Source of the DNA: Takakia lepidozioides
Lineage: Eukaryota; Plantae; Bryophyta
Direction: 5' to 3'
NCBI GenBank assembly: GCA_030704615.1
Contig: CM060732.1
Span: 32,178,001-32,242,000 of the forward strand
DNA: 64,000 nt
Numbering within the stretch: the first letter of the stretch is position 1; the number at the start of each line of letters is the position of its first letter. The translations under genes and the position numbers were made by a program. Positions 1,332 to 29,127 of this stretch are shown here, piece by piece. The notes beneath the pieces were generated by a model. The model did no database searches. It saw only the letters and a program-made list of their open reading frames with translations, and was not told where the DNA came from.

Positions 1332-2396
1332 CTATGCTGCAACCTCTTGAGCAGTACCCCCTTCCTGCTCAGTCAATGACAAGGCCTCATCCTGCCCCAT
1401 CATCTCATCATTGAGAACCTCCTCAACCCGAGAAGAATCCCCAACCTCATCCATCACAGCTGCCTTGGCTGCCAACTCCCTCTGAACCTCGAGCACCTCC
1501 CATGTGTGCCATGGATGTCTACACCCCGTGGTCCTCACCGGCTCGCCCCCACTCGCTGCCTGTACCGTCTCGGTAGGCAGAGAGACCATGAAGGGGAGTG
1601 CACTCCGCACTCTACGTTGCTCAGCCATAGCCAAGCTGATAATCCAGGTCAAGCAATTGAGATCCATTGGTTGCCCCAACACCTGACGCCGTGATGCCTC
1701 AGAAAGAGAAGGCACCGCCGTGGTCCCAGTGGAAAACCCCATAGCCCGCTCTCGCTCGTCGGCATTTGGCTCCACTAACTGCTGCAACTGAGCATCCCAC
1801 AGGAGGCCAGGTCCACCATCCCGAAAAGCATGGGATCCTGGGAAGCTGAGCAGTGTAGGTAATGCTGCTCGTGGTTGACCCACCCTGTTGACCACTGCCA
1901 AAGGCAAACGGTCATCGTGTCTCACACATTGAGACTGCCTCCCTGTGTCCAAAATGCCATCCACGGTGAGGTGTGCTGGCCGCTGGCACCCCATCAAATG
2001 CACGCTTGAGCAGTGCGGGTGGCATCAAGTTAGTCCACCATAGCCGTGGACGATGAGCCCGTGATCCCACTGCAGCTGCATCCAGCAGCACTGCTGACCC
2101 AAGCCATGATCGGACTTGATGCACACTGGCCATCACCCTGGCCCGAGAATCGCCCATCAGTGGCACATTCTCCAAGATGTATGCTGGCGATACAACTTGA
2201 TGAAGCTGCAAGTGGCGCAAAATCCGCACCATCTCCCAAAACAGACCCGTCCTCGAGTCTCGCAATCCATTGCCATGCCCGGCTGATGAATGCCCTTGGC
2301 AGGGCCAACCTGCCACTACCAGATCAATGGAGCCAACCGGCTCCAAATCCGGCGCCCCCAGCAACGAAATGTCTGCTGGCAAGGCTTGTTGGTATC
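1332..2396 (-). pseudogene. C-terminal part of the retrotransposon C5-cytosine methyltransferase (motifs IV-X) plus linker to RT
   Basis: IDLVVAGWPCQG (PCQ at 2296-2304), YILENV (ENV at 2164-2172), AHRPRLWWTN, ERERAMGF, RRQVLGQPM. One frameshift near 1990. Confidence 0.9.
2388..2396 (+). repeat. left target-site duplication GTTGGTATC of the outer MULE
   Basis: Identical 9-mer at 27855-27863. The identity extends to 11 bp because the element begins with CA. Confidence 0.9.
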
Positions 2397-2575
2397 CAAC
2401 GACGCAATGGCGTGAGCGTTGCACGTGAGCGCGCGAGCGTACGCTCACGCAGGAGTGACGTGGCGTGAGCGTACGCTCACGCCAGCTGACGTGGCGTGAG
2501 CGTCATGTCAGCATGCTGATGTGGCGGTAAATGATGACGTGGCACTGTCCGTCAACTGCCACGTCAGCATTAACA
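2397..2575. repeat. left terminal/subterminal repeats of the outer MULE (CGTGAGC and TGACGTGGC motifs)
   Basis: Multiple GGCGTGAGCG / CGCTCACGC and TGACGTGGC copies. The same motifs cluster at 27755-27854. Confidence 0.8.
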
Positions 2576-3019
2576 TGTGCCGCCTATAACCGTGGATGGT
2601 CCTATTACCGTGGAATTAATGCAGGGAATCTTGCCTAAATAGAATCAAGACGAGCGTTGAGGCCTACAATTGCAGCATCCAACATTGTGCAATTACAAAT
2701 GCTTGTTTCACTTTTACAATTACGAAGACGACAAAATATCCTCACAAAGTGTGCGCCATAAAGGCTGCCACGAGAAGACTTCCTCCCTCCTCAAATAACA
2801 ATGAGAGTTATGATCATCTTCAAAAGATGATTGTAGTGCATAGCGACAGCAAGACATGTAGACTTCGAACGGTGCAATGACAAATGTGCACTACCTAAAA
2901 GTTGTCACTCAGACCTCACTCCGTATAGTTGGAGGCCATATCATTGCACAGCCGACGAATTGATGTGAATTACACATTTCAAATCATGGTCATCCACATA
3001 CCACATTACATAGTTCATG

Positions 3020-6000
3020 CTACCCATGTGTTGTATCCCGCTGCAAAAGAGTATCGACCTCGTTGAAACTCATAGTGGCCTGGTGAATGAAGTTGTCACG
3101 TTTGGGATCGCAAACCATCCTCCTCAAAAATATGAAATACAAATGTTTGCAGGGTATGAATTTACCTCTCTTGCCCAAACTGGTTGATAGCATATTCACA
3201 AAATCAGGACATGTGCAATTGGGGAAATTGGAAACCGTGATGTCGTAGGTCCTGTCATGAACAGCAGATGTGGAAGTGATGATTGTGAATACCCGACCAT
3301 ATCATGGATCGGGTACTTCCGTGGTGCTTCCGACACGAGCTTGGAGCATTCTTGCGGACTCCACTTTGCCAAAGTGTTCAGCGGTTGGAGGGAAACCCCG
3401 AACGAGCTTTCCATCTCGTTTGGTTGGCCACAAGTCAGGATTTGCCGGGGGGACCCGGGAGGACGCAGGAGTAGTAGCACATGCATGGAGTTGGGGTTGT
3501 CTCGCAAGGGAAAAACCTGCCTCCTCCAGCATTTCAATCTCCTGAAAGCTGAGATGTGTTCCCATCTTCACGGCCAAACGGTTGGAGGAGATGGCTTCAT
3601 CACTACGGAAGGACGCACAGTTCCATGCACACATCTGGCACAATCATCTGCGCAGAACCAGAACTTGTGGTTCTTGGCTTCTGGTTGACCGTATGGACGC
3701 ATCAAGCCCGTGAAAGTCGGAGCAGGAGTTCGGGCACCACCTCTGGATATAGATGAAGTGCACTTCTCGAAATTAGTTGCCCTGATCGCTGTACATTTCA
3801 CACGAGACCCGACACTTGTGCGTTCTATGTGCCAAACGTGGTCGGGGCATGCGGACTCAAGCACATCAAGGGGTTGTTTCTCTCCTGCACCATTTCAGTG
3901 GCACGGTTTGATGCTGGAGCTTGCCGTCGTGTTGGAGGTTCCTCCACAATGGAGGTTCCGGACATGGAGCTGTCATGCAGGGGAACACGAGGCTTCGAGA
4001 AGTTATCACGGTCTGCCCTGTGGGAATCTGAATCCGAACCAGGTGGAGTGTTCAATTTCCTCTTACAGGAGCCGAATCTCTCCTCCCCTTCAAGATGTGG
4101 AACTCTAGAAACAAGTGGCGTTCCCTGGGCATACATGCTCACCGCCCGTGCTATCTTGATTGGATCCCCAGATCTGTTTGCAGCACGCAACATCAACTCC
4201 CATTTGTCCGGACCCTTGCCACCAACCCCACCTCGTAAGAAATCACGGTATCGGGTTTGTTGTTGCAAGGCACGTATCAAATCATCTGTTGTTGCCACAT
4301 ACAAATCCCGACCTCGTTTCCCAGACTGCTGCAACCATGCATTGTGCACAGTTTCTGCCAAATTGCAAGATGGCATGTCCGCCATTTCCTCAATGGACAT
4401 GTTCTGCAAAGAGGATAACCACACTTCAGAATAGTGCACATGAAACAACATAAAGAAAGCAATGAGTCAAAAATATGGAAAGCAAATGTATGAATAAAGC
4501 ATGAAATAGAAGCCTCGTACCATTGTCATGGCTGCTCCCCACTGTCTATACCGGAAGTGCCAAAACGCCAGCCAATCTTCCAATGCTCTCATACTCTCAA
4601 GTGATGCAGCTCCAGAAGAGAACCACCAGGCACGAATTGTCTGGAACAAAGTGTCCGCCTCCTTCATTGTTCTAGCATCTTTGTACTCTTTGCACAATTT
4701 ATGGTGCTGAGTCTGCATCTCTGGTTTGATGTCCGACTTTGTATGTTTTTCCAGAGATTGTGTCCAATGGAATAGACATGTACGCTCTCTTCCTGGCATA
4801 GGCACTTTTGGGTCGCCCGATCCGAAGACAATACGAATAGCATTGAAATTTGCTTGAGCACTATCCGCCATAAAACCTGCGAAATTTGGAGATGGCAGCC
4901 CATGGCAGCCCATGACACGTATCAGGGAATTCCACATGAGCTTCTGGGATTCCGTATCCTCGGATTGCATGTCACAAACTGCAATTGTCATAACTCGTTG
5001 GTACACTGGATCGTAGACATGACAAGCCATTGTCGTCCAATCCTTCACTCGTTTCACATGATCAAACATAAGAAAACAGTTCTGCAAGTCCCCAGTCTTC
5101 TGCATCCGCTTCACGAGGCTAACCCCACTGCCCTCCCCAACAGTCGACATTTTGAAAAGAAAAACTTTGATGGCACCTTGACCTGGGAATACATTGTCCT
5201 GGATGTAATCGTACTTGCTCAGTCGTTTCAATTCCAAAATATTGTCTATGTAGCCTCTGATCCCAGAGCCCATTCTCAATGCATTGATCTGATGCCGAAT
5301 GTTAGGTGAACTTAAAGTGGAGAAATGATCCATGACCAGGTCCAATGCTGCACCGTCAAGTTTAGTCCCCACAGAATCTCCTTCACTCAAAATATGGCTT
5401 TCCAAGAAGGACTTGCTTGCGCCAAGAGCAATTGCAGATGTTGTTGCGGATGGGTTTCTCCCGAACTCCTGTTTGATCAACCTCGATACTGTCTCAACAC
5501 TCTCCCTGTAATCCCCCTTCGAGACAGGATGGTTATGGAATCCAAAATGCACACAAGCTCTCATCATTGTATTCAAACGGTGGACAACATAGTACATTCT
5601 TGCTCCGCAGAGCGCCAAGCAGGATGGCACAAGTTTGCAGAATTTGCAGACGAAAGTGTTTGCCGGTGGAGGGGCAATCCCAAGCTGAAATGGATTCTCC
5701 GCCAGACCCTCCCATTCGCTTTGATTATGAACACCAGACTGAAGAAAGTGTCTGCAATTCAAATTATCACACCTAAGGTGTCCATTGCAAACTGTCCTCC
5801 TGAAAACAAGCTTGTCATCATTCTGAATATTGGATGTTTTTGTTCTGCACCACGGGTGCCCGTCGTGTTTCTTGTCCATTCCATGCATCATGATTGTTAC
5901 ACCTCCAACTCGCGGAGGAGGAGGCAGCTCGAATAGGATATCGCCATCAAAAGTCTCCGGCAAGAACTTCACAGGCACCTGCTTCAAAGATTCCCAATCA

Positions 6001-6533
6001 ATTCCCCGCAACTCACTTTTGAATCCAGCCATTCCTCCCAACGCCCGCAATTTTGGAATGACACTACAAATCTCTTCTTCATCAGCTTCTGCAACCACAG
6101 TAGGAAGGACTGGATTTGGAATTTCACTTATGTCATCATCGGAAGAATCCGAAAGCTCAACGATTGGAGTGGAGGAAGTCTGTTCTTTTTTCACCACCAC
6201 CTCCCTCTTGTCTTCAACGACCGAAGCAGCAGTCCCGGGCGTCACATATGACCCAAGGGACTTTCGCCGAGGCTCTCCAAGTACTCTGTATCGACCAGGA
6301 CGCACTCTCCACTGGCTGATATGAGCCGTCTCATCACGGTTTTGGAAAGAATATTTCACCAACTTCCCTTTCAGATCGTAAACCTCTTTCTCCAAAAAGA
6401 TGGAGCCATTCTGCAGCTGAAAACGGGTAGCCAAGACATGTTCCAGAACAATTGCAAATCCATTGTCAAGGACTTCCTGGGAGAACGGCACTGGTTTGTC
6501 GTCTGAGAAGAACTCCGCTTCAGAGGAAGCCAT
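3020..6533 (-). pseudogene. MULE-family DDE transposase with GCM-like Zn domain and C-terminal SWIM finger (outer element)
   Basis: HDGHPW..CNGHLRC...C..C..H..H (GCM/WRKY-like), FLMFDHVKRV, FMADSAQA, CLFHW (CxxH), NLAETVH and SWIM CTCPDF..CKH. GT-AG intron 4520..4404. The 3' part has frameshifts and a TGA at 3302. Confidence 0.85.
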
Positions 6534-8112
6534 CTTCCTTCCTCGAGTATGTTTGTACCTTGCTATCGCAGATCTAGTGTAAATCGGTTTACTGCTGTCT
6601 CCAGAACACAGTTGAAGAATGAGCAGAGCATATGGCGGAGGAAGCTCAGATAACGACTGTGCATATTCTGTTATTCATTCCAGATATGCAGCCGTCCATT
6701 TTAATTACTTTTCTTGTGGGCCCAGTGGTCAGAGAATCCCTAGGGGCAGTGTCGGCAACTGTTAAACCGTTAATCAGAACCTCATCAATAAACCCAATAA
6801 CAAAGCCGACTTCCTGGAAGCATGCCACAGGATCTGAGAATGGGATTGCAGATTAAGTAAATGTATCTATATACTACTACCAATGATCATGCGCACCTGG
6901 AAAGTTCCAAATGTGAAACGAATGTGGGGTTTGGATAACAAGGATGACCGTGTATGATATTCCAAAATTTGTCATCAAACTCTCGTTCATTTATATTTAT
7001 TTGTTTAAGACTGCGCATCAATTTCTGGGATTCGCTGTTCTTTTTAAATATTGAACCCGTTATAATAAAGAACATGCCGTTTTTTTTGGGCGGCACACGT
7101 CAGACATCCATAACTGAATACGAACAGCTGTACACCAATTGCTGGCATGTGCACTAATAAGGAAACGACTATGTGTAACGGTCACGCGGGAGGGAATCCG
7201 ATGCTTCTAGAGACACGCAAGAACACAGGCAATCCCGCAAGAAATCGGGAGTCACTGCGTTTTTCTACTTTTCGCGCTTAGAGGGAGAGTGGTAGTCAAG
7301 CTGGAGAGGGTTCCTTCTAGAATACGAAAGAGAAGAAAGTCTCTTTATTTTACTTCCCTTAGAGAGAGACGCAGAGCAAGAGAGAAAATGACGAGGCGTC
7401 GTTTGTTGGAGAACACAGGGCCAAGGCAGCAGGTGAACGCGGAGACTGATTCACAAGAGCAGACGGAGACTGAGGCAGCGGCTGCGACACAGTCGGCGAT
7501 AAGAGTGCGCCAGCCTGTGGAGGCAGAGATGAATCGTAGGGACACTGAAGAAGGTGGAAGCACGCGGAACGCCGAACCTGAAGAAGGTCAAGAAACCCTT
7601 GCGCAGACAGAAACTCTAGCAGATGTGAGAGGGAAGAGGAAAGCTGCAGAAGGGGATCAAATTTCAAAACCTAAGAAGGTGCCAGTAAGTTTTATCATAT
7701 AGTCTGTCTGATTGCCTTTCAAGGAGTCCTTCCTCTTCCATTCTTTAGCAGGAACTACTGAATCGCGAGCGTCGTTAACGCCATTCGATTCTCCTCATGA
7801 GATTTATGTACCTATGTGTTTGAAGAGAAAGTCTGCACTTACTATTCTCCCTAAACTACAATGATTGTCGTTGCCGCCAATCAGTCGCACAGGGGGCTGC
7901 TATTTCATGAGCGGCATGAGCATGAGCGGAAAAAAAAAAAGCATGAGCAGACCATTGTCAGTCCACGGAAATAGGGTTAGGAGGCACGGAAATAGGGTCA
8001 TGTGAAGTTGGAATGTGGCACCAGTGGACTTAAAATGCAACATTTTATTGCAAATTTTGTGGCAAGCCACGTCTATACAAGTGTGTTCTAACTGTCATAG
8101 CCGGAATGGGCA

Positions 8113-11100
8113 CTACTCTCCTACACCCTCCGAGGAACTTGCCCCACCTTCTTCCTCATCCCCCTCATCCCCCTCATCCTCCGAGCTCTGTGATGCATCA
8201 GTTCCACTATGCCTCTCAAAAATCCCGTCCTCTCCTTGGGGGACTGTCCACCTCACCTCCTGGGAATCTTCTGCGTCTTCTCCCCCACTTTCCTCAGCAG
8301 AATCCAACACAAATCTACGAGCCCGACGGGCTCTAATAGCTGCTGCCTCCTCCCTCATCTTCATTTTCTTGAGGCTTGCCTCGTCTAAAATCTGCTGTAC
8401 ACGACTACGTTCGGAACACCTCCTAATGGACACCGAAGCAAGCCGGGCAGCATAAGTAGGCAGGATGTACTCCCTTTCTGGACTAGGCATGAAATCTCCC
8501 CTGGCAAAAAAAGGCACGTTCCTCCTGCCCATGAACTCCGGTGTAGACGTCCCTCCGGCAGTACTTGGCATCCTACAGTAAGAACAAATCCACTTGAAGA
8601 ATGTCAATACCAGCACAACCAGAAAGGGTTTTCAATGAAATAAGAGAGCGGAGGGAGGTGCCTCACAAAATCTGGAGGCAACTTACAATGCCACCACTCA
8701 CTCGTAAACCGGGGGCTCCTCGGCCTCGATCCCAACTTCCTCCCCCTGCTCCTTCTCGGATTTTTCCTCATCCTCCGAGGATGCCTCTTCCTCTTTCAGC
8801 AGACGTTCAGCCGCTGCAAGTTCCGAGTTGTGGAGGGCAGTATCTGGCTCGAAGGCGAACACATGCCTGTCGGACAACGTCCCTGCCCACATTGAAGCAC
8901 CTGAGGAACAAAGCGGGCGGTTAATAGCTTGCGGCATGCAATTGCAATGGGGCCAGGGGACAAACTGAGCACGTGAAGGCTTACCCGTGCCGCATGTGAG
9001 GTCCAGAATCCGCCCTTGGACATCCGAGCACGTCTCCATGAGGGTTTGGATGAAAGCAGGGCTTCGGGTCCGGCTGTACCGCCACGGTTTGCCTGTCTTT
9101 GTGTCCTTCGGCATACTAGAGTGGGGCACATAGTTGTAGAGGACATCGTAGGTTACAGGGTCCACAGCGGCATCAACAAGACGACCGTCGTTGCGGAATT
9201 TGAACGTAGACCCTCTCTTCACAAAGCAATATGCCTCAAACACCAATGTCTGCACATCCAACAAAGAAGGGATCAATTCCAGGGTCTACTTAACATACAC
9301 CACAATATGAAGTGAATGCAATAGATTGATAACTTACACTTTGGCCCTCTGTTCGCAACCCCTGCGTACTGATGCAGAACCATTTTCTGAGGAGGACCGG
9401 GGTGACACTTTTCGGTGTCCACCTTGCCACCGCATTCTCTGTGGTCTTCCCTCTCGTGGCAAGGACAACCACACATCCACCGTCATCCAGAAGCATCCCC
9501 GCCAGCCCAAACCCGGCTTTCCAGTAGTCCTCAGTAAACCTGTTCCAGGTGGGCACACCATCCAGGCCCTCCAGCAGCTCCCCATCTGGAATGTCGAGGA
9601 GAATCATGTCGCAAGCTCTCTCCACCTCAACCCCCCCCCGAGTGCTCTTGCAATTCGTGCTCACAGCCGTGAAGAATTCCATCATGGCTTCAAAACCAGG
9701 GGTGTCTTTAGGCTCTGTACCGGCAGCCCTCTTCTTGGCTTTCCCCTTCTGCTCCGCCAGAGACTTGTTGTGTGCCACCTTCTTCGCCCTGGCAGCGAGA
9801 GCGTCAAGGAAGCTCTCATTGACGCATTGGATGATGGTTGGAGGTTCTAGCTTTGGCCTGTGCGTAAACGTCACCGCCGAATACCGCCGTGTAGGCTCGC
9901 CCTCAAATGCCAACTTCTTGGCAGAGCCAGTCCCACTCCGAACTGACTTGGGAACCCGGACGACCGGTGACTGGGTAGGAGCAACAGCAGTCGCAGGACC
10001 TTGAACAAAATCGGCGTCGGAGTCACTCTCTTGGGTCCCCTCCTGCGCCTCCTCCGATGCCCCGATGGTTTTCTTCTTTTTGGGTGTTACTGCAGTCACC
10101 TGTTTCCTTGTCCTTTTCCTTTGACCTTTACTCTTCTCATGCAATTTCTCCTGAATTCCTGCCTGAGCAAGCTCTGCCGCTTTCCTGGAGTTCGCAAGCG
10201 CTTTTGCCTCTTTTGCACCCAACGGAGGCAGCGGAGCCCGGTTTCGTCGGAATTCAGCATCCAGCTTCAATTGAAACTCGGATGGGTCGAGCGAGCCGGG
10301 CGGAAGGTCCACATACCAAGGGCAATCACGCAAATGTTCCAGATGCCACTCCTTCACAATATCGTCAGTGTACATGGAGTCAGCCCCAGGGTTCCTCCAT
10401 GCCAGGAAGAATGGTGGCTCGAAAGACAGATGACCTTTCTCCAAAAGCGAGAACTTACAGTACCTGCATTCATGAAAAACCCAATGAGGTCCGAAAATGG
10501 CTAACTCCCTGAACGGCAATAGGGCCTACAACTGGAATATGGCGCCGAATTTCCACTTCAGGGCCACCCAGTGTAGGGACTTAGCCCGAAAATGGCTAAG
10601 TCCCTGGACGGCAATACGGCCTGGAACTGGAAAACGGCGCCGAATTTCCACTTCCGGGCCAGCCACCCTAGGGACTTAGACCGAAAATGGCTAAGTCCCT
10701 GGACGGCAATAGGGCCTGGAACTGGAATATGGCGCCGAATTTCCACTTCAGGGCCAGCCAGTCTAGGGACTTAGCCCGAAAATGGCTAAGTCCCTGGACG
10801 GCAATAGGGCCTAGAACTGGAATACGGCGCCGAATTTCCAGTTCCGGGCCAGCCACCCTAGGGACTTAGACCGAAAATGGCTAAGTCCCTGGACGGCAAT
10901 AGGGCCTGGAACTGGAATATGGCGCCGAATTTCCACTTCAGGGCCAGCCAGTCTAGGGACTTAGCCCGAAAATGGCTAAGTCCCTGGACGGCAATAGGGC
11001 CTAGAACTGGAAAACGGCGCCGAATTTCCAGTTCCGGGCCAGCCACACTAGGGACTTAGCCCGAAAATGGCTAAGTCCCTGAACGGCAATAGGGCCTGGA

Positions 11101-16720: not shown

Positions 16721-16770
16721 CTCCATCCGGGGATGGTCTCTGTCGGAGAGGTGCCGCCTCTCCGCCGCTC

Positions 16771-17370: not shown

Positions 17371-17675
17371 ATTCGGGGGTAGTAATGTGACGGCACGGTG
17401 CCGGCTTATCCCCTTCAGCCGTCATCATCCGGACGGCCCCCCACTTTCTGACTGCATACCGTTGGCAGTTATTGCGCAAAGACGAGGGGCCGCATTCCGG
17501 AGACAAGGTTCATTAACACTCTGACTGTGGATTTTTGAGATAGTTGGCTCCCTGGATTTGGATCAGGCTTCGTCGCTCGGACAAATCGGCATCGCATTCA
17601 TTCCCATCGCTGCACCCCCTTCTACCAGGGAGCTTCCCCGCACGCCATCCTGGCAGTCTTGTGTGCACATCTCCC

Positions 17676-21260: not shown

Positions 21261-21419
21261 AAATCATGATGGGGCAAACGAAATCCTCCATATGGATTTT
21301 TCAAATGCATTTTTGCTGTATCAGACTTTTTTTTTTTTTGGCAGTGTAATGAATGCACCCCAAAACTCCTGGAATGAGGCAATATTCCCATTCAATGAGA
21401 TCCAACAGAGCAGTTTTGG

Positions 21420-21665
21420 GGCCATTTCTGGAAAAATGGCGCCGAATTTCTCTTTTTGGGGCCGAAAACTCGCTAAGTCCCAACATGCACTGGTACCCTG
21501 TGTTTTGGAAAATGGCGCCGAATTTCTCTTTTTGGGGCCGAAAAATGGCTATCCCCCAACATGCACTGGTACCGTGTCTGGAAAAATGGCGCCGAATTTC
21601 TCTTTTTTGGGCCGAAAACTGGCTAAGTCCGAACATGCACTGGAAAAATGGCGCCGAATTACCTG
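21420..21665. repeat. short array (~4 copies) of GGAAAAATGGCGCCGAATTT units related to the 95-bp repeat
   Basis: Shares GGCGCCGAATTT, GGGCCGAAAA and GCTAAGTCC with the 10491-11155 unit. Further degenerate cores extend to ~21790. Confidence 0.85.
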
Positions 21666-24129
21666 TCATGAGGGGACCTATACCGCGGAAATTCGGCACC
21701 ATTTTCGCCAGAGAGACCTATTGGACCTATTGCCGCGAAATACGTCGCCGTTTTTTCAGGTTACGGACCCTATTACCGCAATTCGGCGCCATATTTGCAC
21801 ATGTCGCTAGGAATTGGCTAGCGGAAGACAAAATATCATGAGCACAACTGTCAAAGTGCAATTTTCCCTTCAAGGGCCAATAATTATTTGGTTTTTCTGA
21901 CACATTGCATAAATTTGTTTTTTTATTGTTTTTTTTTTATTGTTTTTTATGTGTTTTTATTTTCGAAATTTGTACTTCTGCTCATGAAAACCGATTGTGT
22001 TACTACTCTGCTCATGCCGCTCATGCCGCCGCCTGCCGCTCATGCTCATGAAATAGCAAACCTCGTTGCACATATATGTCATTACACAACACCGATCCGG
22101 CAGGTTGTTTCTTTGTGATTGTCGTTACAGCCGTTCCTATCGCTCTCGCTCGCTTTGTTTTGAATACGGCAGTCTCGGCTTTGCATGTGTAGATTGTGCA
22201 ATTCTTTCACACCATTCATGGTGAGTTTCCTTGATACAGAGTGATTGTCGTTACCCCCATACCGATACCGCCATTTCTATTTGCAAATCACTTAGTCAGA
22301 ACTGATGGCATCGTTCAGAAACTGTGAGGTCGAGCCTACAGGATCAGAGGGAAAGGATCTGGAGATGGGGACGAGTCCGCAAAAAGCTCAGAGAATACAG
22401 ATGAAGCAGATGAATCCGAAGTGCACTACCTTGACAAGGTGAAAGAACTCATGTCATTCCAGAAGGTAAACTCTCAGGAGGTTATCAGGAGGTGACATGC
22501 CGTATCTGGAGGGCGTCTGGAAGCCTCTGTGCCGGATGATATCAATGCCTGTTGTGCGTCACTCTTTCTCCCATGACATAACAAAATTGGAGAGTGATTT
22601 TGTGCATGGATATAGACTTGGTGCACAGTTTTTTATGTGTCACTGACGGATATAATGGGGAAAGCACATTAGTTTCTCCAGAGATCAGATGATACCTGGG
22701 ATGATGCTGGAAGATGCCAATGAGAGTTCGAGCTGGCCTCATGATGGGAAAGAACACCCAGCATTCTGGCAACCACATGTTCTAACGTCTGGGACGCAAC
22801 CAACCGATATCTGGCAATGGATGGATACATTCAGAAACACCATTCGAAAGACAAAGACAAGCATTTTGCTGTGGAGGCAATGGTTTTGGATCCGGAAACG
22901 ACATCGCTAGCTTCTTACAGCTACCCCGTGACAAGTAAGTCATCCAGGAGATTTGATTCCCTCTGTAGTGTCTTGTTAATCCTCAAAAAAAGGTGTTAGA
23001 ATGCAATGTTTCCAATGTTTTTGCAGATCAACAGAGAAGATCGCATGTGACAACAAGCTTGGTTCACACACTATTCCGAATTCAGAGGATTGGTCTGATG
23101 AGCTGGATGATTTTCGGACAGTACTACCACCCAATATCATCAAAAGTGCGAAACAGGAAGAGCTGCAGGCACTTGGTATTCTTTGACACGAGAGGCTTTT
23201 CTGGAGTACATGTATGCGGTAAGCCCGAGTCTGTAACTGTTTACTTTTCGAATACATGTTTTAGAGTCCCTTCGGAGCTAATCACTACTTGAATGAATGC
23301 AGCAAGAACTGGCAGAGGCAGCTGAGAAGGAAAATCCGAAATTTCCGCACTACACCAGAGGACTAATGACATCAAAGGTGTGGAAGCTGCAATAAAGAAG
23401 GAGTTTGAGATGCGAGAACAATTGATGTCAGCTTCGGAAAGCAGCTTAGAATAGTAGATCCTGGACTTGGTCCTGAGTTCCTTCATCAGCAGATCAAACA
23501 CACTATGACAAGCATGTGCATCCGGAGATGCAGCAGGAGAAATTGCACCGGCTGGCCATATCGATGGTCGACCCACAAACAAAAATAAGGTGGCTGGAGA
23601 TATGGAACTCAGATCAAACAGTAAAGGACTTGAATCAGTTCCCAAGAGCACCATACAGCCTGGCACACAAGGTGGAAGGAATTAGTGATTTGGTGTTTGA
23701 TAACTGGCTCCACAAGGCTACATTTTGGAGTCAGGTGTGTATTCGAACATGCTGTTTCTTCTCTCTTCAGTATGTGATGTGTATCTTTTTTTGCAATCTG
23801 ACAAATATACTATTTGCAGCTCGAAAAGCGCGTCGTCATTGTGCTGGATCAGACTTTGAAGGACCTGAACATTGCGATTGTTTCCCTCCCCAAATGTCAT
23901 TGGAGGCACCATAAGGAAGTGGAGAGGTCTCAACACCTGGAGATACTTTTTTTCCGGGAGTTCTCCAAAGATGGAGTAACATTTTACGTCGTCAACGACT
24001 TTGACAGTCAGTTGGAGGAGAGTGGGCCATGAGCGAGTTGTGTACAGGTGCAATGTCATATTTGAAACTCTACTACTGTTTTGTTGGAAAAAATGTGGCT
24101 TCATATGGATTGCAATCTTAGATCCAGAT

Positions 24130-24845
24130 TGAATGTCATTGACGACATTCACTTCTTTGTCTAAGTCATTCTTAGCGAGTATATGAATTCACCTGTTTAG
24201 GATCTAAGGGTGCAATTATATTGTCCCTGATTAGAATTGATAATGTCCTTGAATGGCGTTGACGACATTCACATACGGAGGTTGTTGAGAGGTCCTCAAG
24301 TTATTTAAATTTTTGTAATGTCCATAGAGGTTACAGTGAGGGTCCTCACTTCATTTTGCTGATGTCAGGCAGACATTCAGTTGTTCTGCATTGTTTTTTC
24401 CTCTTGCGATGAATGTGGAGGCTTGATAGCTCTGTTTTAAGAAATCCAAAGTGAAATGTCGTTGACGACATTCACAGCTGTGTCTGTATTATTCAAAAGC
24501 GACAAATTCAATTTAATGGATTGGGGAGCTAAGTAATTGGTTTCTTTTTGTATTTTTTGGGATGGCGTTGACCCATTCACATACAGTGATGTTTGTGAGG
24601 TCCTCAGTGATAGGTTCGTTATGAATGTGCATTGAGTTTTCCTGGATGGTTCCTTAATCAATTTTTTATTTCCATCCTGTGATTTTGCTTCATTAAGTAA
24701 TAATTTGGCTTCATTCTTGATGTCGTTGACGACATTCACTTCTATGTCGTGTCATTTCTAATCGATTATTTGCATTCACCTGGATTAGGATGATTTACAG
24801 TGTCATGGAATGAATGTTCTGAATGGCGTTGACGACATTCTATCT
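24130..24845. repeat. dispersed array of the outer element's palindrome GAATGTCGT-TG-ACGACATTC in an intron
   Basis: Copies at ~24131, 24251, 24454, 24561, 24719 and 24821, plus a degenerate one at ~24361. Confidence 0.85.
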
Positions 24846-27800
24846 GGAGCAGTAGTGTGGTCCTGAAAGGTCCTTGAGCAAGTTGTCAGAGCCATTTCAA
24901 TCCATGTTTTATTCTTTCTGTTCTACTTGCATCTTACTCACTGAGCGTTTTTGTGGGTTGGGATTTATCTCCTTTTTTCAGGTACACGAAATATGTGCTT
25001 ATGGAAGGAAATCACCTGAGCGGAATTCCCGACTATCTTGACATGTGGTCGGACCCTGCAAACGATCCAACCATGTATACTGCAGGGATATTGAAGGACT
25101 GGAGTCCTTCTCACTTCAGAGACTGTGGGTGGTACCTTGACTGCCCACCTGAGCACACGACCTTTCAAGAACAGCATATGAAATACTTGAACAATAACGC
25201 TGAGATGCTGGCGCCTTTGACTGACGAAGAGTATCAACGAAACATAGCAACCTTGGCTGCCAAGGAGCCTGATGCTCAGGGAACGCCGCAGAAGGGAAAG
25301 AAGGCGGGCCGCAAACCAAAAGACAAGGCTGTTGATGTCATAGCCATCTCACCAGCAAAGCCAAAGGACAAAGACAAGTCCAAAGAGAAGGAAAAGGACA
25401 AGGGGAAGGAGAATGAAAAGGAGATGGAGAGTGGGCAGGACTTTAGTGCTGGAAGATATACCCGTACTCTTCAGTTCGTGTTCGATGCCAAGCCACACCC
25501 TTCCCGTTCTGATTCAGCAGGAGAGATGAAAATTGTTTCGATGATGCAGAGTCGAAAGAGAGGATACACTGGGGTGCCATCCCCTACCTGGGACAATATA
25601 ATCTCATTCCTCAATCTGGTGAGAATTCCAGTTACTTTCCTTTTCTCTGAAAGTTTCGTTGGCAGTATTTCAGTCTCGTTCTTTGAAAACATTCTTGCCA
25701 TCGTTCTTATAAAAAACATGTCTGTTGCAGGTGAGCACAGGTCCCACCTTCGTATGCGGTGTGCAGAAAACTTATGCGGCCGACATTGTCATTCTCGACA
25801 TCCCGGATGGCCAGGCTGTGCCAGAAGTTCTTCAAGGGCAAGACGCCAGGCTGGAACAAATTCGAGGACAACTACGGGAGTTGGGTGTTCGGGTTCTGTA
25901 ACAATTTCCTCTCTGATGCAGGGACACTTCTGCTTTTTCAGTCATGTGACAATGATAGTCGTCGGGCATTGGCATCATACCTCAAGTCTTCAGGGTTTGA
26001 AGTTTTGCGCACATGGAATTGTGTGAACAGCCTCTACCTTGTGAAAGGGGGTTTCCCTGGTCAGCTGGTATGCCGTCTCCCTTCTGCTTGTGCTTTGATC
26101 ATGAGTTTCAATTTCTCTGCAGCTCCACTCTAGTAGAATGTTTTATGATCGACACCGATCATCAACGATTCATGATTTTTTGTGTGTCAGAGTTCTGAAT
26201 AGCCGATGTACACACTTCCACTTTAGATTGTGTTTACCACACTAACCTGCTATCTTTGGCAGACGAGGATGTTCGAGGCGATCTGCCTGCAGAGGATTCG
26301 CACATCAAAGACACCATCCTCCATCCGCAACTTTGAGATTTCTGACCAGGGTTGTTTCGTCAAACCCCCCTATGAGCCCCATGTCGATGACATTTTGTAC
26401 AACTTCATGCAGTCTAGTTAGACTCTGAAGAGACCAGATGGCACTCCCTGGAGAGGTGCAAAGGAAAAGTCACCAGCATTCATGCAAATACTGCTGGAGT
26501 CATGCAGCCACCGCTCTGCACGGGTGGTCGATCTTTCTGTGTCCACAGGTTCGTTTTTTCCCTTCCGAATTGGTTTCCTTTCAACAGTTTCATCTGCTTA
26601 AATCCCCCCTCCAAACTGTTCATGTTCTCCTGTCTGGTGCAGGAGCAACTTACCACGCATGCAAGGCAGGCGGAAGAAGCCTTTTTGGCATGGAGGGTGA
26701 TTCTGACCTCTACAACACCGTGCTCTTCCCCCTTTTGTCTGGCTCCACTTCAGGCACACAGACTGATCGGATTCAAATTCGAAATGATGACGATCCCGAA
26801 GATAAGCAGGTCGACAACGACTTTTCATGTGAGTAAGTGCTAAACCCTCTTTGGGAGTCATACTCAATTTCTCGATAACATCAAAGTTACAGTAATAACT
26901 TTTTCAGGCTGTCTTTCAGGAAAGCCAGCGGTGGATCTTCAGGAGATACAGTCATTTCTGGCAAGTCTGTTTTTGACAGCCCCCTTTCCAATTTTCTGCT
27001 CCCTGTTTATGCCGAAGCAATGGCACTTCACGCGGCCGAGTCCCTATCCCCTGACTTTTTAGTGGCCAGCCGTAGGTGTATCCAGCGTGGATCCGGTGTT
27101 CTAAAATACTTAGACTTAGATGCAGAGGAAGAGGGGATACATTGTACTGACTCTGAGTCAGACTGAACTGTATTCTTTTAATATTCATTTTCATATTATC
27201 TGGAAAACGTTGAATCCCCTTCCTCTACCGTAGTTGTTCCTTTAGAACAAATAATAATCACAGAATCAACTTTCGTTTAAATTGCTATTGTATGAATCCA
27301 TCTCACAAACCTTCCTGACTCTTTTCATATCCATTGTGCATTCATCTACACTGTATTCATGCGTGCTCCATTCATGAAAGCTTCCTTTGTACAACATCCA
27401 TTGTACATTCATCCTCTGTACTCTTTAATCCACCCCACAAACCTTCCACACTCATTTCATATACTTTGTGCATTCGTCAAAAGATTTGGTCATGCATCTT
27501 CCTGTCATGAATTTTTGTCATTGCTCAACATCCTTTATACATTCATCCATTTTACTCTTATCCATCCGTCATTCATCCATCTACATACATTTTCCACACT
27601 CATCCATCTGTTTATCATCCAACTGTACATTCATCCATCCTTTATTCAATGCCTTTTATTATGTCGTCCAGCTTGTTTCCGCGGTAAAGGGTGCCAATCC
27701 GCGGGAATACACTCCACTTCTTTCTGGGTGCGTGGTGACTTGGCCTTCACGTGTGATGACGTGGACTGAGCCCCGTGACGTGGCATTTGCGCAAGGTGAC

Positions 27801-27854
27801 GTGGCGTGAGCGCAGTTGCGCTCACGTGACCAGGCTCACGCCGAGGCATCCCTG

Positions 27855-27863
27855 GTTGGTATC
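27855..27863 (+). repeat. right target-site duplication GTTGGTATC of the outer MULE
   Basis: Identical to 2388-2396. Confidence 0.9.
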
Positions 27864-29127
27864 CACGAACTGCAGACACAGGCAACAAGTCAGGGTACTG
27901 CTGTACCAACTGAGCCACATGGCGCAGTGAGACGCGTCGTGCAGTCTCATCCCTCTTCACATACAGGTAACGCCTTACCCGCACACCTGCCTGTAGCACA
28001 ACAGCCAATCCGGTGCTGATCCCACCAAACAAGTCCAGAAAGCAAATGCCTTCATCCGGATACTGCCACACAATAGGTGTGGTATCCAATGGCGACAACT
28101 GAGGTGGTCCTGGTGCAATACCCGCACTCTCCTCCTCTCCTGAAGGTACAAAAGCCTCTACCCAGGCTTGTTGCACCCGTCGATCAGCAACCTGTTGCAA
28201 ATCCTTGCTCGTACCCCACAATGGAGTGTGAGCAACCATGGCAGGCAACTCCGCCATACCATGCATGTCATCCTGCTTTGCTGGAGGTGGCACATCCTCT
28301 GCATGGGCATTGCCTTCCAGCAACTCTCTAGGCCAACTAACTGCAGCTGTAAAGGCGGCTAGTGTTGGCATCTTGTCCCGCTGGGCAGCCGCTATACCCC
28401 CAATGAATGTCACAGGGAGCTGTGCACGGCGACCATCGCCTGATTGCCATCCAGGCCTGTAGGATGCTGACTCCTCCCAAAAGTCCAGGGTGAAGCCCAT
28501 GGGATATAATACTGCCCCACCAACGAGGACATCGTAAGAGATCGCGTCTGTCACAATGGCCTTGGCTCGCATCACTGAGCCATCTATAGGATGATCCGGC
28601 TGCAGTCTAATGGCCAACTGATGTCGTGTCATGCCCCGAGCCTGCTCTGATCCTCCCAGAGACGTCTGTATCTGGAAAGGACAAGGCTCCATATCCGCCG
28701 CCATGAGGCCCAAACCTGCAATAGCAGCTCTGCCCAACATCAGTGGCTGAGCTCCCGAGTCCAACAAGACCCGCAGTGGCCGGTACTTCTTGCCTGCCGG
28801 TCCACTCAAAGTGAAAATGCCTCCCTGGTTGTCTAACAAGACAACTCCAGGTGTCACCATGGCGCGCTCAAAGGCTGGCCTAGCTGGCAGCTCCGTCAAC
28901 CTGGCAGCTGCAGCTTGCCAGGGCGCAGCCGTGGCAGTCTTGACCCTCAAATCCGAGGATCCCTCTGCCACTACACCTTCCACTAACTCCGCAGAAGATG
29001 AAATGACCTCCCCACTCTCACAGAGTGTTGCTGCTAGTCTGAACACTGCAGCTGGTCTCACCCCCGACGTCGCAATCATTGTTGCCGAGAACAGTGGGGC
29101 CTGACACACAGAGGTGGCTGCCCCCAA
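27855..29127 (-). pseudogene. gypsy aspartic protease plus N-terminal part of the C5-MTase (motifs I-II)
   Basis: RVLLDSGAQ (DSG at 28753-28761), YDVLVG, then FLDLFGGISTGLAVVLQAGVRVRRYLYVKRD. This resembles DNMT3 LSLFDGIATG, with the expected motif II Glu appearing as Lys. Confidence 0.88.

What the first reader, a model, noticed from the sequence alone, without database searches (positions are those of the whole stretch)
1332..29127. Gypsy polyprotein with an in-frame DNMT3-like C5-methyltransferase between protease and RT
Seen: after removing the MULE, the order is protease (DSG), FGG motif I, PCQ, ENV, RxR, motifs IX-X, then RT, with one frameshift and one TAG. Established: DNMT-carrying retrotransposons are known from dinoflagellates and charophyte algae, so the concept is not new. 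Inference: a land-plant lineage of such elements, able to methylate its own cDNA. This copy is dead (split, with motif II Glu appearing as Lys).
Basis: partly seen in the sequence, partly recalled or inferred. Interest (0 to 1): 0.75.

Follow-up and report, generated by a model that had tools for sequence, protein, structure and literature searches.

The report
Dead methyltransferase-carrying Gypsy retrotransposon copy
This is a broken copy of a highly repeated jumping gene whose protein carries a DNMT3-type DNA-methylating enzyme between its protease and its reverse transcriptase, a design described so far in an alga but with its closest relatives here in liverworts and a moss, and the stop signal after the enzyme is shared by the whole family and is likely a deliberately leaky one.

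Summary
On the minus strand lie gag, protease (DSG), a non-rearranged C5-methyltransferase (motifs I, II, IV, VI, VIII, IX, X) and RT/RNase H. They are split by a 25.5-kb MULE-like DNA transposon with an 11-bp target duplication.

The methyltransferase is DNMT3-type: the best solved relatives are DNMT3A/B/C. It is not a one-off. Sister contigs from the same organism cover the domain as deeply as RT, run uninterrupted across the MULE site, and mostly lack the frameshift.

The closest named relatives are 15 Marchantia, 2 Calypogeia and 1 Sphagnum proteins (about 66-74% identity), then Klebsormidium KnitGypsy-Dnmt3 (49%). All share the PR-DNMT-RT order and one DNMT clade.

An in-frame TAG/TAA sits at that exact position in 57 of 57 related loci and at the ends of Marchantia and Calypogeia proteins. 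In the window it is followed by CAACCA, an exact plant-virus type-I (CARYYA) readthrough context.

The family therefore likely makes Gag-PR-DNMT plus a readthrough RT-RNaseH-integrase-PHD fusion. Self-methylation of cDNA is untested. The window's host was not identified. I found no paper describing land-plant members.

The parts
3..1331 (-). Start of the second reading frame: linker, reverse transcriptase (YIDD 621-632) and the first part of RNase H. It is open for 443 codons and runs off the window. Integrase and the PHD finger expected from relatives are not in the window.
   Evidence: Pfam RVT_1 2.2e-32, RT_RNaseH_2 1e-32; translation. The nearest RT relatives are RT-RNaseH-integrase-PHD proteins.
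1326..1334 (-). In-frame TAG (1332-1334) followed by CAACCA (1326-1331). The stop is conserved family-wide and the context is an exact type-I CARYYA readthrough motif.
   Evidence: 57 of 57 aligned loci have TAG or TAA, then an invariant CAAC. Protein ends. Motif definition from PMC5382211.
1335..1985 (-). C-terminal half of the DNMT domain (target-recognition region, motif IX ERERAMGF, motif X LGQPMDLN) plus the linker up to the stop; frame -3.
   Evidence: Translation; tblastn with Marchantia P0008 residues 1079-1243; coordinates.
1985..1986 (-). Frame change inside the DNMT domain. Most sister contigs are one base shorter here.
   Evidence: read laying: 'left out 1' at 1985 in 34 X1 contigs (depth 215,313 of 311,933), 14 X4 contigs, 2 X6 contigs; tblastn frames.
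1987..2398 (-). Middle of the DNMT domain: motif IV GWPCQG, motif VI ILENV, motif VIII RAHRPR; frame -2.
   Evidence: Pfam PF00145 1.4e-13; translation; coordinates.
2388..2398 (.). Left copy of the 11-bp target-site duplication GTTGGTATCCA.
   Evidence: Sister contigs run on from 2398 into the sequence found at 27866 onward (loose ends).
2399..27854 (.). Inserted MULE-like DNA transposon, itself highly repeated. It has imperfect terminal inverted repeats, two paralogous transposase-like coding regions (about 6674-3023 minus and 17800-21214 plus) and an internal tandem/palindromic array at about 14.6-16.8 kb.
   Evidence: SWIM 6.7e-4 and 5.6e-4; tblastx, about 40% identity; Atlas MULE clusters, 0.93/0.91.
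27855..27865 (.). Right copy of the target-site duplication.
27866..28060 (-). N-terminal part of the DNMT domain: motif I DLFGGISTG (28009-28035) and motif II (27946-27969) with Lys at 27955-27957 where relatives have Glu.
   Evidence: Translation; alignments; 51 of 59 matched loci have Glu and 3 have Lys.
28061..29118 (-). Aspartic protease (LLDSGAQ 28747-28767) and the protease-DNMT linker; frame -2.
   Evidence: Translation; tblastn with P0008 residues 521-948. Relatives hit Pfam gag-asp_proteas/Asp_protease_2.
29232..30783 (-). gag, beginning at the Met codon 30783-30781 and read in three different frames (30783-30502, 30364-29492, 29396-29232).
   Evidence: tblastn with Marchantia P0008/P0011. 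Weak Retrotrans_gag hit, 0.002, below the cut-off. Sister contigs carry an extra G after 30452 (depth 51,424 of 94,313).
30784..32440 (-). Upstream repeated region, presumed 5' untranslated region and 5' LTR. The boundary is approximate and the LTR is not delimited.
   Evidence: Summed contig depth stays at 3e5-8e5 up to about 32.3-32.5 kb and falls to about 500-1,000 beyond 32,573. No internal repeat and no match to the relatives' LTRs.

Best explanation
The stretch is a decayed minus-strand copy of a highly repeated Ty3/Gypsy LTR retrotransposon family whose polyprotein carries a non-rearranged DNMT3-type cytosine-5 methyltransferase between protease and reverse transcriptase, in the same order and the same DNMT clade as KnitGypsy-Dnmt3 of Klebsormidium; the TAG between DNMT and RT is a family-wide in-frame stop that is likely read through, and the enzyme would methylate the element's own DNA copy (untested).

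Shown:
- The domain order, and the DNMT3-type sequence with all catalytic motifs present in relatives.
- Sister copies keep the domain. They lack the MULE insertion, and most lack the frameshift.
- The closest named relatives are in Marchantia, Calypogeia and Sphagnum.
- The stop and the four bases after it are invariant in related loci.
- The nearest second-frame proteins are RT-RNase H-integrase with a C-terminal PHD finger.
- Non-synonymous change is well below synonymous change in deep DNMT comparisons.

Inferred:
- Translation of the genomic RNA mostly ends after DNMT, giving abundant Gag-PR-DNMT.
- A minority of ribosomes read through UAG/UAA in a tobamovirus-like context and make the full fusion with RT, RNase H, integrase and PHD.
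- The protease releases the methyltransferase, which acts on newly made cDNA or on the new insertion.

This copy cannot do any of that. It is split by a MULE, changes frame inside the DNMT domain and in gag, and has Lys at the cofactor-binding Glu of motif II.
For: Anatomy and domain calls.

DNMT3 type:
- phmmer of the intact relative P0009 against solved structures gives DNMT3A 6e-12, DNMT3B 1.4e-9, DNMT3C 6e-9, tobacco DRM 1.2e-8, DRM2 1.6e-4 and bacterial M.HaeIII/M.HhaI about 1e-3.
- The motifs run in the order I to X.

Family feature, not a one-off:
- 31,037 contig pieces of run X1 lie on window 1-3000.
- Summed depth over the DNMT part (1400-2400) equals that over RT.
- 32 X1 contigs continue from 2398 into the sequence that lies beyond the MULE.
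- 34 X1 contigs lack the extra base at 1985.

Relatives:
- 49 proteins with E<=1e-3, of which 15 are Marchantia, 2 Calypogeia, 1 Sphagnum, 1 K. nitens, 2 Closterium and 1 Haematococcus.
- DNMT lies ahead of RT in Marchantia P0007/P0010, K. nitens P0044, Closterium and two unnamed PR-DNMT(-RT) proteins.
- 113 of 126 pattern matches in metagenome contigs were confirmed as relatives. 80 loci were kept, nearly all colinear PR-DNMT-RT.

Trees:
- DNMT tree (158 rows): one split (SH-like 99) separates 47 rows from 111 rows.
- The 47 rows are all 11 DNMT-before-RT proteins, the 7 stop-terminated ORF1 proteins, the window, K. nitens, Closterium, Marchantia, Calypogeia and Sphagnum.
- The 111 rows hold all 63 RT-before-DNMT proteins.
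- RT tree (123 rows): the window joins Marchantia (97) inside a 15-row clade (100). None of the 39 angiosperm/animal Gypsy rows (clade support 100) carries DNMT or PHD.

Stop codon:
- Proteins from Marchantia (P0008, P0027), Calypogeia (P0012) and unnamed sources end at the homologous residue.
- All 40 loci with the same frame on both sides have the stop there.
- 55 of 55 junctions found by a downstream anchor have it.
- 57 of 57 loci aligned by blastn have TA[G/A] (36 TAG, 21 TAA, 0 TGA, 0 sense), followed by an invariant CAAC.
- The window reads TAG CAA CCA, which is CARYYA.

Selection and motifs:
- DNMT dN/dS is 0.92 for the closest pairs (neutral decay after insertion), falling to 0.18 for the 57 deep pairs. 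Window against loci gives dN 0.26 with saturated dS.
- Among the decayed loci, PCQ is kept in 52 of 67 matches, ENV in 43 of 53 and the motif II Glu in 51 of 59.

PHD finger: P0054, P0056 and P0057 are RT-RNase H-integrase-PHD.

Literature:
- An in-frame stop as a way to make Gag-Pol is established for other Ty3/Gypsy elements (PMC10085805, passages).
- The cDNA self-methylation idea and the CG activity of a retrotransposon DNMT come from PMC5890265 (passages and Discussion).
Against: - No readthrough was measured.
- No convincing conserved RNA structure follows the stop: consensus -15 kcal/mol, covariation term -0.31.
- 56 of the 57 aligned metagenome loci have CAACCC rather than CAACCA, so they match only five of the six CARYYA positions.
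- Those loci also carry an ATG two codons after the stop, and predicted second-frame proteins start with Met close to that point. Re-initiation or separate initiation is therefore possible.
- All 80 metagenome loci are decayed. The longest open piece before the stop is 451 codons. Conservation of the stop therefore rests on inheritance from active ancestors plus the independent Marchantia and Calypogeia protein ends.
- No canonical host DNMT3 or DRM sequence could be fetched, so the DNMT tree is unrooted. It does not formally exclude separate captures from host genes.
- The 54-row RT grouping that joins the window clade with K. nitens and Closterium has support of only 92, and K. nitens P0044 sits on a long branch.
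- Methyltransferase activity of this family has not been assayed.
- I could not see whether sister copies carry Glu or Lys in motif II, because the table was cut.
Confidence: 0.7

Rival explanations
1. The architecture is the same, but the second frame (RT-RNase H-integrase-PHD) is made by termination-reinitiation or independent initiation at an AUG just after the stop (or from a spliced or subgenomic RNA), not by readthrough. RT and integrase would then not be fused to Gag.
For: 56 of the 57 aligned loci have ATG two codons after the stop, in the context CCCATGG. Predicted second-frame proteins of several lineages start with Met 12-20 residues before the conserved WEP motif. One is a transcriptome ORF labelled complete.
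Against: The window and L002 have no Met there. The window's first Met is about 84 codons in. Yet both keep the stop and CAACCA. Gene callers start at the first ATG by construction. The synonymous third base of CAA is invariant in 57 of 57 loci, which points to a nucleotide-level signal next to the stop. By established retroelement biology, incorporation of RT and integrase into particles normally needs fusion to Gag.
Confidence: 0.2
2. Land-plant elements captured a host DNMT3 independently of the Klebsormidium elements (convergence), so they are not one lineage.
For: de Mendoza et al. 2018 document repeated independent captures and place the Klebsormidium event 'in the K. nitens lineage'. 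No host DNMT3 outgroup was available here. The RT link to K. nitens is only moderately supported.
Against: The insertion point is the same, between PR and RT. Identity between the window and K. nitens P0044 is 49%. Homology extends through the target-recognition region and an unusual motif X (LGQxMDLN). One DNMT clade (SH-like 99) holds all DNMT-before-RT elements from Closterium, K. nitens and the bryophytes.
Confidence: 0.07
3. The methyltransferase does not act on the element's cDNA. Instead it marks host chromatin at or near insertion sites, or damps the element's own transcription, possibly guided by the integrase PHD finger. The benefit would be tolerated, low-harm insertions.
For: The PHD finger lies at the integrase C-terminus in the nearest relatives. 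If the stop works as a stop, DNMT would be made in excess of RT and integrase, so it is not stoichiometrically tied to cDNA synthesis. de Mendoza et al. list such alternatives in their Discussion.
Against: Nothing here tests any target. The PHD finger and the DNMT sit at opposite ends of the fusion and would be separated by protease cleavage.
Confidence: 0.2
4. The DNMT piece is a one-off chimera: a host gene fragment or another element landed by chance in a single Gypsy copy.
For: None beyond the fact that this copy is disrupted by another transposon.
Against: Depth over the DNMT part equals depth over RT in thousands of sister contigs. 113 confirmed relatives in metagenome contigs and 49 database proteins share the arrangement.
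Confidence: 0.01

Closest known systems
KnitGypsy-Dnmt3 of Klebsormidium nitens (de Mendoza et al. 2018, PMC5890265; I read passages and the Discussion, not the supplements)
   Same: A Ty3/Gypsy element with an intronless, non-rearranged DNMT3-like domain inside the polyprotein. DNMT lies ahead of RT (P0044: DNMT 312-369, RT 770-930, integrase 1235-1401). It falls in the same DNMT clade. Purifying selection acts on the domain (their Ka/Ks <0.2; here 0.18 in deep pairs).
   Different: - The hosts of the closest relatives are bryophytes.
- A conserved in-frame TAG/TAA separates Gag-PR-DNMT from RT-integrase, whereas P0044 is continuous.
- The family is very highly repeated in the window's organism, whereas the paper says K. 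nitens has few copies.
- Relatives here have plain direct LTRs of about 340 bp with TG..CA ends, whereas the paper's figure legend says the repeat structure is DIRS-like.
SymbioDIRS-Dnmt3 and SymbioLINE-DNMT of Symbiodinium (same paper)
   Same: Retrotransposons that carry a cytosine methyltransferase under purifying selection. One of them methylates CG de novo.
   Different: They belong to different retrotransposon classes (DIRS, LINE) and live in dinoflagellate hosts. The captures were independent and the position in the element differs.
EpiLTRs of Euglena gracilis and Cymbomonas (Fernandez-Moreno et al., bioRxiv 10.64898/2026.05.21.726589; I read the abstract and one passage)
   Same: LTR elements that combine a DNA methyltransferase with a chromatin-reader domain.
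   Different: Their DNMT groups with DNMT4. They also carry a Dam-like adenine methyltransferase and a chromodomain. The text has no occurrence of Marchantia, bryophyte or land plant.
Unnamed relatives with the order RT-RNase H-DNMT-integrase-PHD (for example P0049, P0179, P0190; includes a Haematococcus protein)
   Same: The DNMT domain is homologous (profile E<=1e-54), the RT is Gypsy-type and a PHD finger follows the integrase.
   Different: DNMT sits after RNase H. They form the other side of the DNMT tree split: 63 of 63 RT-before-DNMT proteins fall there.
In-frame-stop Gag-Pol expression (Tj1, Tosmo and Tcry elements of fission yeasts, murine leukaemia virus type; PMC10085805) and tobamovirus type-I readthrough (UAG + CARYYA; PMC5382211)
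   Same: An in-frame stop with conserved flanking bases lies between an upstream structural part and downstream enzymes. The window matches UAG-CARYYA exactly.
   Different: The stop lies after protease and DNMT, not after Gag. TAG and TAA are both used and TGA never. Readthrough is untested. The paper states that the plant cluster of Ty3/Gypsy elements usually has a single ORF.

Membership tests
C5 cytosine methyltransferase, DNMT3 type | Pfam DNA_methylase match and catalytic motifs IV (PCQ), VI (ENV) and VIII (RxR) | tested here: met
   PF00145 1.4e-13. GWPCQG, ILENV and RAHRPR are in the window and invariant in alignment A1.
C5 cytosine methyltransferase, DNMT3 type | Cofactor-binding motifs I (FxGxG-like) and II (acidic residue) | tested here: not met
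   Motif I DLFGGISTG is present. Motif II has Lys in this copy, where Marchantia, Closterium and 51 of 59 matched loci have Glu. The family meets the feature; this copy does not.
C5 cytosine methyltransferase, DNMT3 type | Motif order I to X (not circularly permuted as in DRM) and closest solved relatives are DNMT3 | tested here: met
   The order was read from the sequence. DNMT3A 6e-12 ranks above DNMT3B, DNMT3C, DRM and bacterial enzymes.
C5 cytosine methyltransferase, DNMT3 type | Placement inside the DNMT3 clade in a rooted tree with DNMT1, DNMT3, DRM and CMT | not tested
   No canonical host sequences could be fetched. The 150 best representatives were all element-type.
C5 cytosine methyltransferase, DNMT3 type | DNA methylation activity | not testable with these tools
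   This needs expression of a natural intact domain and bisulfite or enzymatic methyl-sequencing.
Ty3/Gypsy LTR retrotransposon | Order gag, protease, RT, RNase H, integrase | tested here: met
   gag, PR, RT and RNase H are in the window. Integrase is off the window but follows RNase H in the nearest relatives.
Ty3/Gypsy LTR retrotransposon | Direct long terminal repeats with TG..CA ends | tested here: inconclusive
   The 3' end is off the window and the 5' LTR is not delimited. Relatives L019, L003, L041 and L065 have 307-342-bp direct repeats 8.5-8.7 kb apart with TG..CA ends.
Ty3/Gypsy LTR retrotransposon | RT groups with Gypsy RTs | tested here: met
   5,903 proteins with E<=1e-20 were found. 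Named hits are Ty3-gypsy polyproteins at 33-40% identity. Tree.
KnitGypsy-Dnmt3 lineage (streptophyte DNMT3-Gypsy) | DNMT3-like domain between protease and RT of a Gypsy polyprotein | tested here: met
   Window. K. nitens P0044 has the same order.
KnitGypsy-Dnmt3 lineage (streptophyte DNMT3-Gypsy) | DNMT domain in one clade with the K. nitens element DNMT | tested here: met
   47-row group, SH-like 99, FastTree, unrooted.
KnitGypsy-Dnmt3 lineage (streptophyte DNMT3-Gypsy) | Single uninterrupted Pol ORF | tested here: not met
   A conserved in-frame stop lies between DNMT and RT in the window and in 57 of 57 aligned loci, and at the ends of Marchantia and Calypogeia proteins.
Mutator-like element (the insertion) | 9-11-bp target duplication, terminal inverted repeats, and a MULE/SWIM transposase (the definition is recalled) | tested here: inconclusive
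   An 11-bp duplication and imperfect inverted ends are present. SWIM hits of 6.7e-4 and 5.6e-4 lie at the cut-off. There is no PF10551 hit. Atlas neighbours are MULE clusters at 0.93 and 0.91.
Type-I programmed stop-codon readthrough | UAG followed by CARYYA | tested here: met
   The window has TAG CAACCA. The definition is from PMC5382211. Most relatives have CAACCC.
Type-I programmed stop-codon readthrough | Measured readthrough product | not testable with these tools
   This needs a reporter assay, ribosome profiling or proteomics.

The most novel reading that the evidence does not exclude
Bryophytes, including the genetic model Marchantia polymorpha, harbour a young and in places very abundant lineage of Gypsy elements. 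These elements produce a DNMT3-type de novo methyltransferase as part of the abundant Gag-PR-DNMT product. They make RT-integrase-PHD only by tobamovirus-style UAG/UAA readthrough. The transposon would then flood the cell with its own methyltransferase, write its own epigenetic state and perhaps part of the host's, and may account for many 'DNMT3' genes annotated in bryophyte genomes.
Probability: 0.3. Interest if true: 0.75.

Novelty: new variant of a known kind. Interest (0 to 1): 0.6.

Why it matters
Retrotransposons that carry the enzyme normally used to silence them have been described only in dinoflagellates and one charophyte alga. Neither is genetically tractable.

Close relatives in Marchantia polymorpha include an apparently intact 1,278-residue Gag-PR-DNMT reading frame (P0008). 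That makes the long-open question of what such an enzyme does for the element directly testable in a model plant.

The conserved in-frame stop changes the expected dosage. The methyltransferase would be made with Gag, in excess of RT and integrase.

It also warns annotators. Several 'DNA (cytosine-5)-methyltransferase' entries in bryophyte proteomes are transposon parts, which affects counts of host DNMT3 genes.

Tried and rejected
- Own-genome search: no genome is held for this window. Intact copies, copy number and LTR ages could not be obtained.
- Host identification:
  - The 410-codon NPH3-containing ORF found no protein at E<=1e-10.
  - Organism names of the sequencing runs are coded.
  - The host group stays open.
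- Expression:
  - No RNA holder was listed.
  - Run X7 is only guessed to be RNA, so I draw nothing on expression from its contigs.
- Earlier findings by place and by sequence returned nothing.
- Rooted DNMT phylogeny:
  - The profile search gave 10,745 proteins (E<=1e-3), 2,027 (<=1e-10) and 371 (<=1e-30).
  - The 150 listed were all element-type (<=2.5e-54).
- RNA structure after the stop:
  - The consensus of 12 sequences is weak (-15 kcal/mol, covariation -0.31).
  - A small GGUU...AACC hairpin around the stop overlaps conserved codons and cannot be separated from protein constraint.
- 5' LTR of the window copy:
  - There is no repeat elsewhere in the window and no match to the relatives' LTRs.
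  - The 273-codon ORF at 31522-32340 has no Pfam hit and no match in the 80 loci.
- Motif II in sister copies: no row at 27955-27957 among the 40 shown, but 241 rows were hidden, so this is unresolved.
- TAG in sister copies of the same organism: no row at 1332-1334 among the 40 shown, and 193 were hidden. This is consistent with conservation but not proof.
- The generic inverted-repeat search was swamped by an internal palindromic array. The transposon ends were compared directly instead.
- Literature:
  - Searches found no paper describing a DNMT-carrying retrotransposon in Marchantia, liverworts or other land plants.
  - PMC11982613 and PMC8616336 hold the search terms only in unrelated passages.
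  - Supplements of these papers were not read and may list further species.

Full report
**What is there**

The element lies on the minus strand.
- Stop-to-stop ORFs and Pfam give RT plus RNase H at 3-1331. This ORF is open and runs off the window (RVT_1 2.2e-32, RT_RNaseH_2 1e-32).
- A C5 DNA-methylase match lies at 1912-2502 (PF00145, 1.4e-13, profile positions 60-155 of 324).
- A weak gag match lies at 30128-30523 (0.002, below the cut-off).
- Translations show LLDSGAQ (protease) and DLFGGISTG (motif I) in ORF 27646-29142.
- GWPCQG, ILENV and RAHRPR are in ORF 1912-2502.
- ERERAMGF and LGQPMDLN are in ORF 1332-2024, which ends in TAG at 1332-1334. The RT frame follows directly and in frame.

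**The split**

- The sequence GTTGGTATCCA occurs at 2388-2398 and again at 27855-27865.
- Between the two copies lie 25,456 bases whose ends share an imperfect inverted pattern (GGCGTGAGC ... CACGTGAGCGC).
- Removing 2399-27865 joins ...VRGYQ to QALPAD... in frame.
- The insert holds two paralogous coding regions of about 3.3 kb in inverted orientation, about 40% identical by tblastx.
- Each ends near a weak SWIM zinc-finger hit (6.7e-4 and 5.6e-4, at the curated cut-off).
- The 735-codon ORF 4470-6674 has MULE-transposase clusters as its nearest Atlas neighbours (0.93 and 0.91, lead-level evidence).
- No PF10551 hit was obtained.
- "MULE" is thus well supported but not proven.

**Is the methyltransferase part of the family?**

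No genome is held, so I laid public contigs on the window.
- Run X1 placed 31,037 pieces on window 1-3000. Of these, 10,468 were at 99% identity or more.
- Summed depth over the DNMT part (1400-2400) is the same as over RT, about 1e6. The tool warns that this figure is not a copy number.
- 32 X1 contigs run from 2398 straight into CGAACTGCAGAC..., the sequence that lies at 27866 onward in the window. Sister copies therefore lack the MULE.
- 34 X1 contigs (depth 215,313 of 311,933), 14 X4 contigs and 2 X6 contigs lack one base at 1985. The single frame change between protease and RT is therefore not shared by most sisters.
- The refutation condition "sister copies lack the domain" is not met.

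On the other side:
- Depth stays high to about 32.3-32.5 kb and then falls about a thousand-fold. This places the 5' end near 32.44 kb.

Against the Marchantia ORF1 protein P0008:
- gag starts at 30783.
- It is read in frames -2, -1, -3 and -2 again.
- Sister contigs carry an extra G after 30452 (depth 51,424 of 94,313).
- They mostly share the window's state at the other two places.

**What kind of methyltransferase**

The intact relative P0009 was searched against all solved structures.
- DNMT3A is best (6e-12), then DNMT3B (1.4e-9), DNMT3C (6e-9), tobacco DRM (1.2e-8), Arabidopsis DRM2 (1.6e-4) and bacterial M.HaeIII/M.HhaI (about 1e-3).
- The motif order is I to X, as in DNMT3 and unlike DRM.
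- The printed alignment puts the Glu of the relatives' motif II on the corresponding Glu of DNMT3A.
- The window has Lys there. Among the related loci, 51 of 59 matched copies have Glu and 3 have Lys. The Lys is therefore decay, either private or at subfamily level.

**Relatives**

With the middle DNMT piece and the 'longer' length setting, 49 proteins scored E<=1e-3 among 4,084 candidates.

| Source named | Proteins | Identity |
|---|---|---|
| Marchantia polymorpha | 15 | 53-73% |
| Calypogeia fissa | 2 | 69-70% |
| Sphagnum troendelagicum | 1 | 66% |
| Klebsormidium nitens | 1 | 49% |
| Closterium | 2 | 40-42% |
| Haematococcus | 1 | 39% |

- Pfam on 20 of them shows DNMT ahead of RT in Marchantia P0007 and P0010, K. 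nitens P0044 (DNMT 312-369, RT 770-930, integrase 1235-1401), Closterium and unnamed PR-DNMT(-RT) proteins.
- One protein (P0049) has RT-RNase H-DNMT-integrase.
- A scan of JGI metagenome contigs with alignment A1 matched 126 stretches. 113 were confirmed and 80 kept. tblastn shows PR, DNMT and RT colinear in nearly all.
- A profile search of 1.84 billion representatives found 10,745 proteins (E<=1e-3), 2,027 (<=1e-10) and 371 (<=1e-30).

**The TAG is a family feature**

- Proteins from large Marchantia and Calypogeia scaffolds (P0008, P0027, P0012) and from unnamed sources (P0018, P0023, P0025) all end at the residue homologous to the window's ...EVAA.
- In the loci, 53 have adjacent DNMT-end and RT-start matches. 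40 of these are in one frame, and all 40 have a stop at ...KVFA*QP....
- With a downstream anchor only, 55 of 55 junctions have the stop.
- With a blastn alignment that does not require any residue, 57 of 57 loci have TA[G/A] (36 TAG, 21 TAA, no TGA, no sense codon). Next comes CAAC, invariant in 57 of 57, including the synonymous third base of CAA.
- The window, L002 and L061 read stop-CAACCA.
- The plant-virus type-I readthrough signal is UAG followed by CARYYA (PMC5382211, passages). The window matches it exactly. Most loci have CAACCC, which matches five of six positions.
- More distant relatives are continuous from DNMT into RT (K. nitens P0044, unnamed P0038 and P0041, Closterium P0047). 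The stop is therefore a derived trait of the bryophyte-type group.
- In-frame stops are an established way of making Gag-Pol in other Ty3/Gypsy elements. The same paper notes that the plant cluster usually has one ORF (PMC10085805, passages).

Caveats:
- All 80 loci are decayed. The longest open piece before the stop is 451 codons.
- No convincing RNA structure follows the stop.
- Most loci have an ATG two codons after the stop, which keeps re-initiation alive as a rival. The window and L002 lack that ATG.

**The rest of the element**

The RT piece found 5,903 proteins at E<=1e-20 among 7,954 candidates, of which 120 were listed.
- The nearest (57-75% identity) are proteins of 1,030-1,170 residues. 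Pfam shows them to be RT, RNase H, integrase and a C-terminal PHD finger.
- Single-ORF relatives with PF00145 follow at 41-57% identity.
- Angiosperm and animal Gypsy polyproteins follow at 33-40%.
- Relatives L019, L003, L041 and L065 have direct repeats of 307-342 bases, 8.5-8.7 kb apart, with TG..CA ends.
- The family plan is therefore: LTR, Gag (two CCHC knuckles in P0008), PR, DNMT3, stop, RT, RNase H, integrase, PHD, LTR. The total is about 9 kb.

**Trees**

All trees are FastTree, use SH-like support and are unrooted.

RT tree, 123 rows:
- The window joins Marchantia P0007 and P0010 (support 97) inside a 15-row clade (100).
- A 39-row clade (100) of angiosperm and animal Gypsy elements holds no DNMT- or PHD-labelled row.
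- The wider 54-row group, which adds K. nitens and Closterium DNMT elements, has support 92. K. nitens P0044 sits on a long branch.

DNMT tree, 158 rows:
- Of 166 proteins scanned for architecture, 63 had RT before DNMT, 10 had DNMT before RT and 93 had DNMT only.
- One split (99) separates 111 rows from 47 rows.
- The 111 rows hold all 63 RT-before-DNMT proteins.
- The 47 rows hold all DNMT-before-RT proteins, the stop-terminated ORF1 proteins, the window, Marchantia, Calypogeia, Sphagnum, K. nitens and Closterium.
- Within the 47 rows, the window sits in a 9-row clade (99) with the named bryophytes.
- This favours one capture ancestral to the streptophyte PR-DNMT-RT elements. Without host DNMT3 outgroups it is not proof.

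**Selection**

On 135 ungapped DNMT codons of 54 copies:

| Pairs | Median dN/dS |
|---|---|
| Closest pairs (decay after insertion) | 0.92 |
| dS 0.1-0.2 | 0.64 |
| dS 0.2-0.4 | 0.51 |
| 57 deep pairs | 0.18 |

- Window against loci gives dN 0.26 with saturated dS.
- RT gives 0.36-0.49.
- The domain was kept by selection in the active lineages, as reported for K. nitens (Ka/Ks <0.2).

**Mechanism**

Shown: the architecture, the DNMT3 type, the family-wide presence, the conserved stop and its context, the PHD-integrase and purifying selection.

Inferred:
- Most ribosomes stop after DNMT, and a minority read through.
- The protease frees the enzyme.
- The enzyme methylates the element's cDNA or the new insertion. 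This is the idea of de Mendoza et al., who showed CG methylation by a dinoflagellate retrotransposon DNMT.

**Novelty**

- de Mendoza et al. place the capture "in the K. nitens lineage". Their text has no occurrence of Marchantia or Physcomitrella.
- The 2026 EpiLTR preprint has none of Marchantia, bryophyte or land plant.
- Six literature searches found no description of land-plant members.
- An earlier agent of this scan reached the same view for a Sphagnum family.
- I file the finding as a new variant of a known kind: a bryophyte-type branch of the DNMT3-Gypsy lineage with a conserved recoding-type stop between DNMT and RT.

Noticed in passing
window 35601-39741 (minus): A second, unrelated reverse-transcriptase element. 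RVT_1 is split over two adjacent ORFs (35601-36167 and 36171-36659). Upstream lie a 689-codon ORF (36663-38729) and two more ORFs without Pfam hits. Part of the region is also highly repeated in run X1 (35243-35500).
   Followed up: no
window 14600-16800: Inside the MULE-like insert lies a dense tandem and palindromic array. Its arms reach up to 480 bases at 97% complementarity, and its units are offset by about 53 and 106 bases. The array produces spurious low-complexity Pfam hits (LptD, MbtH).
   Followed up: partly
window 60261-62146 (minus): Host-type gene fragments with BTB (8.4e-8) and NPH3 (1e-9) domains. By recall this pairing is typical of streptophyte NPH3/RPT2-like proteins. It is the only clue to the host found in the window.
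   Followed up: partly
window 54549-55133 (plus): An ORF with a Myb/SANT-like DNA-binding domain (Myb_DNA-bind_4, 1e-15).
   Followed up: no
window 27500-35500: At sites where at least half of the sister contigs differ from the window, 70 of 139 have A or T in the window where the sisters have G or C by transition (T>C 39, A>G 31). The reverse direction accounts for 26. This is the pattern expected if this copy lost methylated cytosines by deamination.
   Followed up: no
window 32440-32456: A run of 17 A (minus strand) sits exactly where the highly repeated sequence gives way to low-copy sequence. Upstream of gag, a 273-codon ORF (31522-32340, minus) has no Pfam hit and no match in the related loci. 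Sister contigs diverge from the window at 30802, 31246 and 31356.
   Followed up: partly
proteins P0179, P0190, P0207, P0246, P0049 (not in the window): A larger sister group of elements has the methyltransferase between RNase H and integrase: 63 of the 73 proteins that hold both domains. These also end in a PHD finger and reach 3,456 residues.
   Followed up: partly
L001-L080, junction after the stop: 56 of the 57 aligned loci carry ATG two codons after the conserved stop, in the context CCCATGG. The window and L002 do not.
   Followed up: partly
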